64,000 nucleotides of DNA from Escherichia coli (lineage in GTDB: Bacteria > Pseudomonadota > Gammaproteobacteria > Enterobacterales > Enterobacteriaceae), in the NCBI RefSeq assembly GCF_965641715.1, contig NZ_OZ282453.1. One strand, 5' to 3'. The position numbers are program-made. Shown in pieces: positions 32,801 to 35,800 of the stretch (the stretch's first letter is position 1; every line of letters starts with the position of its first letter).

Positions 32801-35800
32801 GAAATTATTTAAATGATATATAAAAACAACTGTGATAACACCAGGGTTGACAACTATTTGCGCAATAATTCCTTTCCTTCAATGATCCAGGCGTTCACTG
32901 TCAGCACCCCATTCAGCCGCATACTGACAGTGAGAAACTGAAAGATTATTGCTGATCCCTGTGGCTGACGAGTCTTTCCCTTAATCGATTAACCAGATTG
33001 ATCGCCAGCCAAACAAGGGCATTAAGCAAATTTATCGTCACAAGCACTTCTCCCAGCCCGGTACTGGGTTTTGCAATAAGGATGACCAGGAGAGTGATCA
33101 GCATAAATGCAATGGAAAAGATGATATAGAGAGTGAAATAATCCAGATTATTACTATTGTTCATGCTACTAATGGCAATCCTGTCAAAACTTTCAAACAA
33201 TTATAGCAAACAAAATAATGAACAATAGTAACAAGAGGCAACGAGCTAATTAGCTGTCTATAATTACACCGCACCATGGCCTTATTGATCAATTTTCACT
33301 CAACCACAACCTTCACCTTCGGTTTAGAAAGGATAATTTTGACCAGGTTTATGTATGTAACAGGTTTATAGAAATAATAACCCTGCTGAAATGTAATATT
33401 ATTTTGATTCAGATAGTCAAGTTGTTCTTTCGTTTCGACACCTTCAGCGACGATACTGATCGAAAGTTTACGCGCCAGATCCAATACACAATCCAGAATT
33501 CGGGTTGATTCTGGGTCTGCGTTGACGCGGCCAACGAAACTGTGATCAATTTTGATATAATCAATATGCAGGTCATGCAGATAAGAAAGCCCTGAGTAGC
33601 CAGTACCGAAATCATCCAGCGCGATGACAAAACCATTTTCATGCAGAATGTTCAACCGCTGAACCAGACTTTCATCAACATTTAATGGCTCACGCTCGGT
33701 AACTTCCAGAACGAGGTTTAAATCGCGGCGGGTAAAACTGTCACGGTAATTTAAGCACTCGTCGACAAACGTCGGCGAAATAATATGCGAGGCGCTAAAA
33801 TTAATTCCAATATGAAAACCTTCCGGCAATTTACTCGCGATAGCGTTCATCTGTCTGGCAACCTGATTCATCAGGCTTTGCGTAAGCGGAACGATTAATC
33901 CGGATTTTTCAGCAAGTGGAATAAATGCCGCGGGTGAAATATATCCACCGTGAGGTTGTTTCCAGCGGGCTAACACCTCAACTCCCCGCAATGTCCCTTC
34001 CCGACCATTCACCACTGGTTGGTAAAAAGGGACGATCTCCCCATTATTTATAGCCCGCCGCAGGATCTCTTCAGGCGTTGCGCTTTTATTGAAATACCTA
34101 TCTAGCAGGAAGGCAGCGGCGCAGGCGATTAACAGAATAAAGATCAAAATCCCAAAGCCTTTATCGATAAGTCTGTAGAAGCTAAAGAGTGGCGGCGAGT
34201 TAAAGATAATAGTGAAATGATATTTTGTGGAGTGAACCTTCTCGGTATAGGGATAATGTCCATTAAGCGTCATCACATCACCCGTAGGTCCAATAATGTC
34301 ATCTGCCACGCGTAATACATACCTTACCCCTTTCAAGGGTACATTAAGCGCCCCGCGAATATGCTGATCACTTATCGTAACCAAAATGCGCGTATCTGCA
34401 AATTGGCTCTGATAGAGCAGGATAGGTAATCTATTAACGGTGTCGATTGCCGGAGCCAACAGTAAATTACTGTCCGGGAAAACAGGAATACGAGACAACA
34501 GGACCCGATTCCCAGGCAGGGATGTACACCAGACTATTCCCTGTTTGAGAATGATGATTGTGCGCAGGTGAGGTTTCAGAGCTGCTTCAGTGCCAAGCTG
34601 ATATTGCTCCTCGAGGTCGCATTCCTTCCCGGCAATGTTAACCGCTGTTTGAGTCGCCTGTGACGCTTCTTCAAGTATATGATTGATATTGTTGGCGGCA
34701 TATCTTGCTCCCGCCAGGTACTCTGCTTTTGCGGAATACCAGAGCTGGATGTTCAAAATAGCGACACCGGTAATAAACAAGCATATCGCAACGAGGATGG
34801 GTATGAGTGTATTGCGCATTTGCTTGTCCCGGCCAAAGGGTTTAATACATGAAAATGCCATTCATTCGCTCGCGCTGGCATCTACAGAGAGCATGGTAGA
34901 TAGCATAAGAAATATCCACGCCGAAGATAAAATTTTCTCCATCTTGATCTAACCCATTAATTATTGAGCATAATGTAGGCAGTATAAAATAAATTAGGCG
35001 GGATATCAGGCGTCAAGAATGGAGAGCGAGAACTCTCCATTCTTGACACCTGATATTGCGGACATATTAAGAAAGCATAACGCCTGAAATGCTCACTTTG
35101 CATCAGCATGGTGATACAGCTGATGTTTATTCTAAAACCTTACTCAAGTTCTAAGAGAGCACGGATTCCCTGTCATTAATAATGATATCCGTTAGTGTAG
35201 TCTTATGCATTTCAATGTACTGCAATATTTGCAGATAGAGATCAGAAAGAATCACACTGGTTTCATCTTTTAAACGCAAGCGTAAAGCCTGATCAATAAT
35301 ATGACTATCAACATACCCATGCGTCATGAACACCTCCCTCTCGAGATTTTTAAACAAAGCACATTGAAAAATAAATCTCTCTGGGATTGAATTGTTCATG
35401 TCAGCCTCGTAGAAATATAACCCAATAAAATTATGCTGTGTATAGTCTAAAGCGACAGACAAAAATAAGATGAATGAGTTTTCTATAAACTTATACTTAA
35501 TAATTAGAAGTTACATATCATCAGCTGTGTATCGCAACACGATTTCCAGTGTTTTTCTAATCACATCAGCTTTGAGAATATCACTTGTTGTTTCCAGGGA
35601 GTGTATCAGACTTAAGATAATATTTTTATTATTAACATTATCGCCTGAAAGCATTAAATTGGTGACAGCCTGCCCTAACACAGCTGACTCTTCTTCTAAC
35701 AAATTACCCGAACTGCGAAAGTAACTTGCTAACGCTTTATCAGTTATTGCATTATGAATTGTAGTATCTTCAAGCATGGTAACCTCTCATCTTACTTATG

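What the first reader, a model, noticed from the sequence alone, without database searches (positions are those of the whole stretch)
35003..35057. Unusually long perfect-stem hairpin after the ycgZ-ymgA-ariR-ymgC operon
A 24 bp inverted repeat with a single mismatch and a short loop lies between ymgC and the pdeG start, followed on the minus strand by a T-rich tract. This stem is much longer than in typical intrinsic terminators; it could be a strong terminator insulating pdeG, or an RNA stability or protein-binding element.
Basis: seen in the sequence. Interest (0 to 1): 0.4.

Follow-up and report, generated by a model that had tools for sequence, protein, structure and literature searches.

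The report
Long hairpin between ymgC and pdeG
A real, unusually long, single-copy hairpin sits between an E. coli biofilm-regulator operon and the next gene; it is not a standard transcription terminator, is probably an RNA 3'-end or RNase III structure, and about a third of strains carry a weaker version.

Summary
The inverted repeat is real: arms 35003-35026 and 35033-35056, 24 nt, one mismatch, 6-nt spacer. On the minus (ymgC/pdeG-sense) RNA the mismatch is a G.U, giving a 25-bp stem (-42 to -44 kcal/mol, z = -12). It lies 95 nt after the ymgC stop and 184 nt before the pdeG ATG.

It is single-copy, has no Rfam family and was found only in E. coli. It is not a canonical intrinsic terminator. 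The stem is followed by CCCGCCUAA, and the T-rich tract starts only about 10 nt later. The terminator scan is negative, and published K-12 Term-seq tables list no 3' end there.

The T-rich tract and the 3' arm coincide with the published predicted sigma-70 pdeG promoter (TTGACG-19-TATTTT). Its -35 lies inside the 3' arm, the arm that is almost invariant.

Across E. coli the near-perfect form is one allele (about 64% of genomes carrying the locus). About 33% carry a 4-nt bulge and mismatches (-26 to -29 kcal/mol). In that allele only the sense-strand RNA still folds significantly.

Best reading: an RNA-level 3'-UTR stem-loop acting as an exonuclease barrier and/or RNase III substrate. Its near-perfection is lineage-specific, probably from template-switch palindrome correction. 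Function is inferred, not shown. Interest is modest.

The parts
35033..35056 (-). 5' arm of the hairpin in the ymgC/pdeG-sense RNA (ATATCAGGTGTCAAGAATGGAGAG). This is the polymorphic arm: B-type strains carry G/G substitutions and an ACAG insertion here.
35027..35032 (-). Spacer TTCTCG. In RNA its outer U and G pair, leaving a 4-nt loop UCUC. B/D alleles have CGCTCG.
35003..35026 (-). 3' arm of the hairpin in sense RNA (CTCTCCATTCTTGACGCCTGATAT). Its outer 20 nt are invariant in the A, B and D alleles.
35011..35016 (-). TTGACG, the -35 hexamer of the ycgG/pdeG promoter predicted by Shimada et al. 2014. It lies inside the 3' arm, and its final G is the wobble partner of the single mismatch.
   Evidence: PMC3946193, Table 3: ymgC>ycgG spacer, RpoD holoenzyme site plus H-NS site, TTGACG-19-TATTTT. 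Coordinates read.
34986..34991 (-). TATTTT, the predicted -10 of the same promoter. B/D alleles have TGTTTA here.
34992..35002 (-). CCCGCCTAATT, the 11 nt immediately 3' of the stem. It is C-rich at its 5' end and is not a U-tract.
35080..35090 (-). ATTTCAGGCGT, an upstream third copy of the arm end (9 of 11 identical to the start of the 5' arm). It is an alternative pairing partner for the outer 3' arm and is used in the MFE fold of the B allele.
   Evidence: (I3)
35151..35399 (-). [quoted passage not shown]
33296..34819 (-). pdeG (ycgG) CDS, a CSS-EAL phosphodiesterase downstream of the hairpin.

Best explanation
The element is a genuine, single-copy palindrome, found only in E. coli, at the seam between the ycgZ-ymgABC operon and pdeG. 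I think it acts as RNA on the ymgC-sense strand, not as an intrinsic terminator.

Proposed mechanism. Transcripts that pass ymgC fold into a 25-bp stem. This stem is the structure at which 3'->5' exonucleases (PNPase, RNase II) stop after Rho-dependent or diffuse termination further downstream, so it sets the mature 3' end of the polycistronic mRNA. In the near-perfect allele of this window the stem exceeds the roughly 22 bp of duplex that RNase III accommodates. It is therefore also a likely RNase III substrate, and cleavage would sever ymgC RNA from pdeG RNA.

pdeG has its own sigma-70 promoter. Its predicted -35 (TTGACG) lies in the 3' arm and its -10 in the T-rich tract. That would explain why this arm is nearly invariant while the 5' arm varies.

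The near-perfection of the stem is a lineage-specific state, most likely produced by template-switch (quasipalindrome-correction) mutation rather than by selection for a longer stem.

Shown here or in the cited literature: the structure, its position, the lack of a U-tract, single-copy status, the set of alleles, and RNAP binding in the spacer. Inferred: the exonuclease-barrier and RNase III roles, the promoter assignment to the base, and the direction of evolution.
For: Structure: 25 contiguous pairs on the sense RNA, -42.3 to -44.5 kcal/mol, z = -12.

Position: 95 nt after the last gene of an operon shown by northern blot to be one polycistronic mRNA (PMC3509220).

Fit to a known class: stable stem-loops without a U-tract immediately upstream of steady-state 3' ends are the documented hallmark of Rho-dependent E. 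coli transcripts, where they act as exonuclease barriers (PMC6061677). Rho acts in this operon: a bicyclomycin-sensitive 3' end lies at MG1655 1216634, the end of ariR.

All ten alleles seen keep a hairpin.
- 95% of pair cells are paired.
- The inner 11-bp helix is 100% paired.
- All four of its variable pairs switch between G-C/C-G and G.U/U.G, which preserves pairing only on the sense RNA.

In the B allele the sense RNA still folds well (-29.3, z = -5.3). The antisense strand does not (-18.9, z = -1.1), nor does + strand DNA (z = -1.7). This argues for an RNA-level rather than a DNA-level feature if anything is conserved.

RNase III accommodates about 22 bp of dsRNA (PMC6212723). A weak RNase III-dependent signal is listed in the ymgC-ycgG spacer (41 reads in the rnc mutant against 0 and 1 in wild type, at 1217246).

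Promoter overlap: RpoD holoenzyme and H-NS binding in this spacer, with predicted promoter TTGACG-19-TATTTT.

Lineage-specific perfection:
- Hairpin identity bands in 4952 E. coli records (4950 genomes) are 2889 at >=99%, 276 at 95-99%, 135 at 90-95% and 1651 at 80-90%.
- A-type flanks are 3.5 times less diverse than B-type flanks.
- A-type haplotypes nest inside B-type diversity in a rooted NJ tree.
- The template-switch correction model for E. coli inverted repeats is published (PMC5941160).
Against: No 3' end is reported at the hairpin in the one Term-seq supplement I could read. However, the operon is poorly expressed at 37 C, and much of its transcription stops at the end of ariR.

The Gordon RNase III signal is about 100 nt downstream of the hairpin. 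It is of the low-count class that fills that table.

No double-sided compensatory change was seen. The pairing statistics do not exceed column shuffles. The wobble-versus-mismatch asymmetry is 5:2 to 7:2, which is not significant.

Hairpin stability varies from -26 to -44 kcal/mol among common alleles, so there is no strong constraint on stability.

Substitution density is higher inside the hairpin than in its flanks.

A 25-bp stem is far longer than the protective stem-loops described by Dar and Sorek. RNase III cleavage would remove, not provide, exonuclease protection, so the two proposed RNA roles partly conflict.
Confidence: 0.4

Rival explanations
1. There is no selected function. The hairpin is a by-product of replication template switching in a young intergenic region found only in E. 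coli. An imperfect inverted repeat was 'corrected' to a near-perfect palindrome in one lineage and is simply tolerated. Any effect on RNA is incidental.
For: ymgC, pdeG and ymgF are E. coli-specific.

Alleles differ by clustered multi-base changes.
- Two substitutions plus a 4-nt indel fall within 10 nt of the 5' arm.
- Four substitutions fall within 9 nt at the apex.
- These look like complex single events rather than independent point mutations.

Allele D equals a B-type sequence in which only the 5' arm is 'corrected'.

The single wobble is independently resolved both ways, to U-A in L051/L060 and to C-G in L081.

Stability ranges from -26 to -44 kcal/mol among common alleles. There is no significant covariation. 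The region tolerates IS insertions and deletions, including an IS3 at the hairpin apex. The published model states that template switching preferentially perfects inverted repeats in E. coli.
Against: Every allele retains a significant sense-strand RNA hairpin. The inner helix never loses a pair.

The corrected 5' arm is not an exact reverse complement of the 3' arm. It has T where C is expected, giving a G.T pair.

The polarity of change is inferred only from diversity and a weakly rooted tree.
Confidence: 0.3
2. DNA-level element of the pdeG promoter. The palindrome overlaps the -35 hexamer. It would act as an operator for an unknown dimeric protein, as an H-NS nucleation site, or as a supercoiling-dependent cruciform that occludes the promoter.
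For: RpoD holoenzyme and H-NS both bind this spacer in genomic SELEX, and the predicted -35 TTGACG lies in the 3' arm.

The 3' arm is almost invariant while the 5' arm varies.

In the A allele both DNA strands can form about -25 kcal/mol hairpins.

The mirror arm carries a consensus TTGACA on the + strand, followed 16 nt later by TATTAA.
Against: Arms of 24 bp are far longer than known operators.

In a third of strains the symmetry is broken (4-nt insertion, mismatches). The + strand DNA or RNA hairpin is then no better than shuffled sequence.

The predicted promoter has a 19-nt spacer. Its -10 is not conserved in B/D alleles (TGTTTA).

SELEX-chip peaks do not resolve to the base, and no TSS was available to me.
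Confidence: 0.15
3. One reading: a strong Rho-independent (intrinsic) terminator that ends ycgZ-ymgABC transcription and insulates pdeG.
For: A very stable hairpin lies after the last gene of the operon. A T-rich run (TTTATTTTAT) is nearby on the same strand. The operon gives a discrete polycistronic mRNA on northern blots.
Against: Intrinsic terminators need a 7-9-nt U-tract immediately after the hairpin (abstract of PMC3993855). Here CCCGCCUAA intervenes, so the RNA:DNA hybrid at the release point would be G/C-rich.

The terminator scan gives 0 hits. No Term-seq 3' end is listed. ymgC mRNA lacks the PAP I tails associated with intrinsic terminators. The T-rich tract is better explained as the pdeG -10 region.
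Confidence: 0.07
4. A relic or member of a mobile or repeated palindromic element: REP/BIME, ERIC, a MITE, or back-to-back IS ends.
For: It has a palindromic architecture. IS1 and IS3 insertions occur within or beside it in some strains.
Against: There is one locus per genome. The second BLAST 'place' is the palindrome matching itself on the other strand, and it is absent for the imperfect B allele.

There is no other copy in the window and no Rfam family. The 21-nt degenerate arm pattern has no exact match in one genome from each of 100,044 species. There is no phage match, and the plasmid matches are mis-assigned chromosome.
Confidence: 0.03

Closest known systems
U-tract-less 3'-terminal stem-loops of Rho-dependent E. 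coli transcripts (Dar and Sorek 2018, PMC6061677)
   Same: A stable stem-loop downstream of the last gene of an operon. It is not followed by a U-run and has C-rich sequence just after it. Rho activity is documented in the same operon.
   Different: The stem is 25 bp, whereas Dar and Sorek report stem and loop lengths like those of intrinsic terminators; from general knowledge, not a tool result, those stems are typically about 5-12 bp. No steady-state 3' end has been mapped here. The stem is long enough to be cut by RNase III.
RNase III-processed 3' hairpins that control upstream mRNA decay (lambda sib/int retroregulation; named from general knowledge)
   Same: A long, nearly perfect intramolecular duplex downstream of a coding region. 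It forms only in read-through transcripts.
   Different: No cleavage has been mapped. There is only a weak rnc-dependent signal 100 nt away. A third of strains have the duplex interrupted, as 14 bp plus 8 bp.
Canonical intrinsic terminator
   Same: A hairpin after an operon, with T-rich sequence in the neighbourhood.
   Different: There is no adjacent U-tract. The stem is AU-rich at its base and about twice the usual length. No mapped 3' end exists.
Quasipalindromes corrected by template switching (Ripley model; Lavi et al. 2018, PMC5941160)
   Same: Orthologous alleles differ by clustered changes that convert an imperfect inverted repeat into a near-perfect one. Intermediates exist in the population.
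   Different: The corrected arm is not an exact copy of the other arm: one G.T remains. The direction of change is not proven.
REP/BIME extragenic palindromes
   Same: An intergenic palindrome in a 3' UTR that could stabilise upstream mRNA.
   Different: It is single-copy, has an unrelated sequence, and is not a repeat family.

Membership tests
Intrinsic (Rho-independent) terminator | Stable RNA hairpin downstream of a gene, on the transcribed strand | tested here: met
   25-bp stem, -42 to -44 kcal/mol. It is much longer than is typical and is AU-rich at its base.
Intrinsic (Rho-independent) terminator | A 7-9-nt U-rich tract starting 0-2 nt after the stem | tested here: not met
   CCCGCCUAA follows the stem, and the T-run starts about 10 nt later. 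The scan gives 0 terminator-like sites on either strand.
Intrinsic (Rho-independent) terminator | RNA 3' ends mapped at the tract in vivo or in vitro | tested here: inconclusive
   There is no entry at MG1655 1216900-1217399 in the Adams 2021 tables, but the operon is weakly expressed under those conditions. Other data sets were not readable.
Protective 3' stem-loop of Rho-dependent transcripts | Stable stem-loop lacking a U-tract in the 3' UTR | tested here: met
Protective 3' stem-loop of Rho-dependent transcripts | Steady-state 3' end immediately after the stem, with longer tails in pnp/rnb mutants and read-through with bicyclomycin | not testable with these tools
   The only related datum is a bicyclomycin-sensitive end at the end of ariR, upstream of ymgC. 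C/G composition downstream is only weakly rut-like.
RNase III substrate | About 20-22 bp or more of near-continuous intramolecular duplex | tested here: met
   The A allele (this window) has 25 contiguous pairs. The B allele has only 14 + 8 bp with an internal loop.
RNase III substrate | rnc-dependent staggered cleavage within the stem | tested here: inconclusive
   Gordon 2017 Table S1 lists 1217246 (ymgC-ycgG spacer). This is 102 nt downstream of the hairpin and has low counts. The Altuvia 2018 supplement is not held.
Repeated extragenic palindromes / MITEs | Multiple dispersed copies per genome or across genomes | tested here: not met
   Single locus per genome. No exact match to the 21-nt degenerate arm pattern in the representatives of 100,044 species. 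No Rfam hit.
Template-switch (quasipalindrome correction) product | Clustered differences between orthologous alleles that all increase arm complementarity | tested here: met
   B versus D/A alleles: G->T, G->T and loss of ACAG within 10 nt remove two mismatches and a bulge.
Template-switch (quasipalindrome correction) product | The new sequence equals the reverse complement of the other arm, and polarity is confirmed by an outgroup | tested here: inconclusive
   One position is T instead of the templated C. No outgroup carries the hairpin, because the divergent ymgC loci L008/L009 lack it. Polarity rests on diversity and a weakly rooted NJ tree.
Sigma-70 promoter element (pdeG -35) | RNAP holoenzyme binding and a -35/-10 pair at functional spacing, with a mapped TSS | tested here: inconclusive
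   Holoenzyme binding in the spacer and the motif TTGACG-19-TATTTT come from PMC3946193. The 19-nt spacer is long. The -10 is not conserved in B/D alleles. My scan, limited to 16-18-nt spacers, did not list it. No TSS data were available.

The most novel reading that the evidence does not exclude
The palindrome could be a dual-use switch at the operon/pdeG seam. As RNA, it would be an RNase III-cleaved 'retroregulator' that sets the stability of the blue-light and cold-induced ycgZ-ymgABC connector mRNA. As DNA, its 3' arm would be the pdeG -35. Read-through transcription, or cruciform extrusion, would then gate expression of a c-di-GMP phosphodiesterase. E. coli lineages would have tuned this coupling by stepwise template-switch perfection of the stem (B -> D -> C -> A alleles).
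Probability: 0.08. Interest if true: 0.55.

Novelty: new member of a known kind. Interest (0 to 1): 0.27.

Why it matters
If the RNA-level reading is right, this stem sets the 3' end and half-life of the mRNA for the YcgZ/YmgA/AriR/YmgC connector proteins. These proteins feed into Rcs signalling and curli control. The stem would also uncouple that operon from the neighbouring c-di-GMP phosphodiesterase gene. Natural alleles with very different stem strength would then give strain-specific expression.

Independently of function, the allele series (bulged, intermediate, near-perfect, perfect) is a clean population-level illustration of how long hairpins arise and are perfected in bacterial intergenic DNA. 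Neither point overturns current understanding.

Tried and rejected
- Rfam at permissive E-value over 33000-37000 gave only chance-level eukaryotic miRNA/snoRNA hits.
- Repeat family or mobile element was rejected: single copy, no phage hit, and plasmid hits that are mis-assigned chromosome.
- The 50-aa ORF spanning the hairpin (34957-35109, minus strand) was rejected as coding. The common 4-nt indel would shift its frame.
- The YmgC-based scan of one genome per species found nothing. The arm pattern found nothing either. The E. coli representative in that collection evidently lacks the locus, so no outgroup was obtained this way.
- The YmgC protein search returned only E. coli/Escherichia sp. 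proteins among the 120 listed hits that carry a source name. The most divergent copies (L008/L009) sit next to cybB-gapC and have no hairpin, so they cannot polarise the alleles.
- I looked for an ectopic template for the B-type 5' arm. A 13/14 match in inverted orientation lies inside pdeG (window 34476-34489). It does not reproduce the observed sequence or length, and I treat it as chance.
- Covariation statistics were not significant.
- C/G-skew search for a rut site downstream was weak.
- Supplements of several 3'-end and RNase III studies were not held or had no entry. The Tschowri 2009 paper was not held.
- The small ORF and YmgC have no Pfam or NCBIfam family.
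Full report
**Observation**

The window carries an inverted repeat at 35003-35026 / 35033-35056 with 24-nt arms, one mismatch and a 6-nt spacer. The mismatch is C.A on the + strand. It becomes G.U on the minus strand, which is the sense strand of both flanking genes.

The minus-strand RNA therefore forms 25 contiguous pairs with a 4-nt loop. The free energy is -42.3 kcal/mol for the hairpin alone and -44.5 with short flanks. The z-score is -12.2 against dinucleotide shuffles.

The arm sequence occurs nowhere else in the window, with 0.00 expected by chance. This is the longest short-loop inverted repeat in the 64 kb. A published survey of perfect inverted repeats in MG1655 found none with arms of 20 bp or more and a mean arm of 5.75 bp. 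The element is therefore in the extreme tail.

**Context**

The 301 bp around the hairpin are 100% identical to E. coli O145 strain RM9872 and 98.7% identical to K-12. RefSeq annotation of those records places the minus-strand genes as follows:

| Gene | Window coordinates |
|---|---|
| pdeG | 33296-34819 |
| ymgC | 35151-35399 |
| ariR | 35511-35777 |
| ymgA | 35806-36078 |
| ycgZ | 36121-36357 |

The hairpin begins 95 nt after the ymgC stop and ends 184 nt before the pdeG ATG. In MG1655 it is 1217091-1217144. ycgZ-ymgA-ymgB-ymgC are reported as one polycistronic mRNA. ymgC, ycgG/pdeG and ymgF are reported to be present only in E. coli. My protein search agrees: all named YmgC relatives are from E. 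coli or Escherichia sp..

**Why it is not a canonical intrinsic terminator**

- On the sense strand the stem is followed by CCCGCCUAA. The T-rich run (UUUAUUUUAU) starts only after that.
- Intrinsic terminators require a U-tract immediately after the hairpin (abstract of PMC3993855).
- The consensus scan finds no terminator-like site on either strand in 34500-35600.
- The held supplementary tables of the Adams et al. 2021 Term-seq study contain no 3' end between MG1655 1216900 and 1217399. This is weak evidence, because the operon is poorly expressed at 37 C.
- That study does list a bicyclomycin-sensitive (Rho-dependent) end at 1216634, the end of ariR. Few transcripts may therefore reach the hairpin under those conditions.
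- Mohanty and Kushner used ymgC mRNA as a non-polyadenylated control. They concluded that PAP I tails mark Rho-independent terminators. This is indirect but points the same way.

**What the T-rich tract and the 3' arm coincide with**

Genomic SELEX with RpoD holoenzyme (Shimada et al. 2014) found a holoenzyme-binding site, overlapping an H-NS site, in the ymgC>ycgG spacer. The authors assigned the promoter TTGACG-19-TATTTT to ycgG.

In the window, TTGACG is minus-strand 35016-35011, inside the 3' arm. Its G is the wobble partner of the single mismatch.

This assignment is computational within a low-resolution peak. The spacer is long and I had no TSS data. Even so, it offers a second reason for conservation of that arm.

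**Distribution and copy number**

The intergenic region is present in 4992 of 5426 complete E. coli genomes and the hairpin in 4950. The median of two BLAST 'places' per genome is the palindrome matching itself on the opposite strand. Records with the imperfect allele show one place.

Other searches were negative:
- no Rfam family
- no phage match
- plasmid matches are all non-mobilizable E. coli records and include records of up to 4.9 Mb, so I read them as mis-assigned chromosome
- no exact match to the 21-nt degenerate arm pattern in one genome from each of 100,044 species

It is not a repeat family or a mobile element.

**Allelic variation**

Alignment of six complete genomes and 80 metagenome contigs shows a series of alleles. 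The contigs were recovered with an anchor upstream of the hairpin.

| Allele | Description | Count among the 90 loci analysed |
|---|---|---|
| A | K-12 and this window | 38 |
| A1 | wobble resolved to U-A | 2 |
| A2 | wobble resolved to C-G | 1 |
| A3 | loop change | 1 |
| B family | two G substitutions and an ACAG insertion in the 5' arm, a different apex, G.U pairs near the loop | 45 |
| C | intermediate apex, three G.U pairs and one mismatch; also in strain 789 | 2 |
| D | A-type 5' arm on an otherwise B-type sequence | 1 |

Across the 4952 matching E. coli records (4950 genomes), the best-match identity bands to the A hairpin are as follows:

| Identity to the A hairpin | Records |
|---|---|
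| >=99% | 2889 |
| 95-99% | 276 |
| 90-95% | 135 |
| 80-90% | 1651 |

That is about 64% near-perfect, 3% intermediate and 33% bulged. Sense-RNA stabilities are:

| Allele | MFE (kcal/mol) |
|---|---|
| A | -42.3 |
| D | -39.6 |
| C | -29.0 |
| B family | -25.7 to -28.6 |

**Is the structure under selection?**

Across the ten distinct alleles, 95% of pair cells are paired. The inner 11-bp helix is paired in every allele. Its four variable pairs all alternate between G-C/C-G and G.U/U.G. There is no double-sided compensatory change, and the measures do not exceed column shuffles.

The G.U pairs mean the structure is preserved on the sense RNA only. For the bare hairpin sequences the sense strand folds better than the antisense strand in every allele. 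With 5-nt flanks the two strands of the A allele tie at -44.5 kcal/mol. For the B allele the contrast is clear:

| Strand and molecule (B allele) | z-score |
|---|---|
| Sense RNA | -5.3 |
| Antisense RNA | -1.1 |
| + strand DNA | -1.7 |

Counting transitions, wobble-preserving versus pair-breaking changes are 5:2 to 7:2, which is not significant. The evidence for RNA-level constraint is therefore suggestive, not conclusive. It argues against a conserved DNA-level palindrome function.

**Direction of evolution**

- A-type flanks (1 kb upstream) have pi = 0.67%. B-type flanks have pi = 2.4%.
- In an NJ tree rooted with the divergent L009 locus, A haplotypes form a tight cluster nested within B/C diversity.
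- B alleles occur in ST131 and O55:H7, and A alleles in K-12 and this O145 strain.

This favours imperfect -> near-perfect as the direction. The alleles differ by clustered multi-base changes. The B-to-D difference removes two mismatches and a bulge in one 10-nt patch. This is the signature expected of template-switch quasipalindrome correction, a mechanism documented in E. coli and proposed to perfect inverted repeats genome-wide.

The fit is not exact, because one position gives G.T instead of the templated C-G. No outgroup with the hairpin exists. I therefore rate this direction at about 60%.

**Mechanism**

The best-supported reading is an RNA-level 3'-UTR stem-loop. Dar and Sorek showed that Rho-dependent E. 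coli transcripts end immediately after stable stem-loops that lack U-tracts. Those stem-loops act as barriers to PNPase and RNase II. This element has that anatomy, but with a much longer stem.

In the A allele the stem exceeds the roughly 22 bp that RNase III accommodates. It should therefore also be cleavable. Gordon et al. list a weak rnc-dependent position in this spacer (1217246 = window 34901; 41 reads against 0 and 1). That position is 102 nt downstream and of the low-count class.

These two RNA roles partly conflict, since cleavage removes the barrier. I cannot decide between them with the data available.

My confidences are:

| Reading | Confidence |
|---|---|
| RNA-level 3'-end or processing role | 0.40 |
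| Non-functional by-product of template switching | 0.30 |
| DNA-level role at the pdeG promoter | 0.15 |
| Intrinsic terminator | 0.07 |
| Mobile-element relic | 0.03 |

**Verdict**

This is a real and unusual hairpin in a region found only in E. coli. The 'RNA stability element' alternative is plausible.

The new facts from this analysis are the overlap with the predicted pdeG promoter, the single-copy status, and the allele series showing that perfection is lineage-specific. It is a new member of known kinds (a U-tract-less 3' stem-loop and a corrected quasipalindrome) and is of modest interest.

Noticed in passing
window 34863-34943 (- strand): An unannotated 26-codon ORF lies between the hairpin and pdeG: MEKILSSAWIFLMLSTMLSVDASASE. 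It resembles a signal peptide with an AxA site. It is intact in almost all of 87 loci. Variation consists of ATG/TTG start variants, several synonymous changes, a few conservative replacements and one in-frame 12-nt deletion (strain A29). Its TGA abuts an upstream in-frame ATG of pdeG in A-type strains. It has no Pfam or NCBIfam family. The weak RNase III-dependent position of Gordon 2017 (window 34901) lies inside it.
   Followed up: partly
window 37990-38003 / 38014-38027: A perfect 14-nt inverted repeat, ATACTTTGTACAAT(10 nt)ATTGTACAAAGTAT. It lies in the bluF-bluR spacer, about 50 nt upstream of the GTG start of the MerR-like bluR. It could be a bluR promoter/operator or a bluF 3' structure.
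   Followed up: no
L011 (IS1), L093 = strain A29 (IS3), L005 = HET6 (IS3), L004 = C7 (deletion): The hairpin neighbourhood is prone to rearrangement.
- IS1 is inserted 16 nt after the stem.
- IS3 is inserted at the hairpin apex, with loss of everything from bluF to the 5' arm.
- IS3 is inserted about 100 nt downstream.
- A deletion of the pdeG 5' end is present in 17 of 87 sampled loci, all B-type.
   Followed up: partly
L008 116-364 and L009 324-572: A divergent ymgC copy (82% amino-acid identity) sits next to cybB-gapC-aldA-like genes rather than pdeG. It has no hairpin downstream. It may be a second ymg cluster or an alternative location.
   Followed up: no
window 35080-35090 (- strand): ATTTCAGGCGT is a third copy of the arm end, 24 nt upstream of the hairpin. 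In the B allele the MFE fold pairs it with the outer 3' arm in place of the 5' arm. It could provide an alternative structure or be a trace of how the repeat arose.
   Followed up: partly
window 35043-35070 (+ strand): The mirror arm carries a consensus -35 hexamer TTGACA, followed after 16 nt by TATTAA. This is a possible antisense promoter pointing into ymgC. It is present only in A-type strains.
   Followed up: no
window ~35513 (MG1655 1216634) and 35400-35510: Published data place a bicyclomycin-sensitive (Rho-dependent) 3' end at the end of ariR. [quoted passage not shown] Much of the operon's transcription may therefore stop before ymgC.
   Followed up: no
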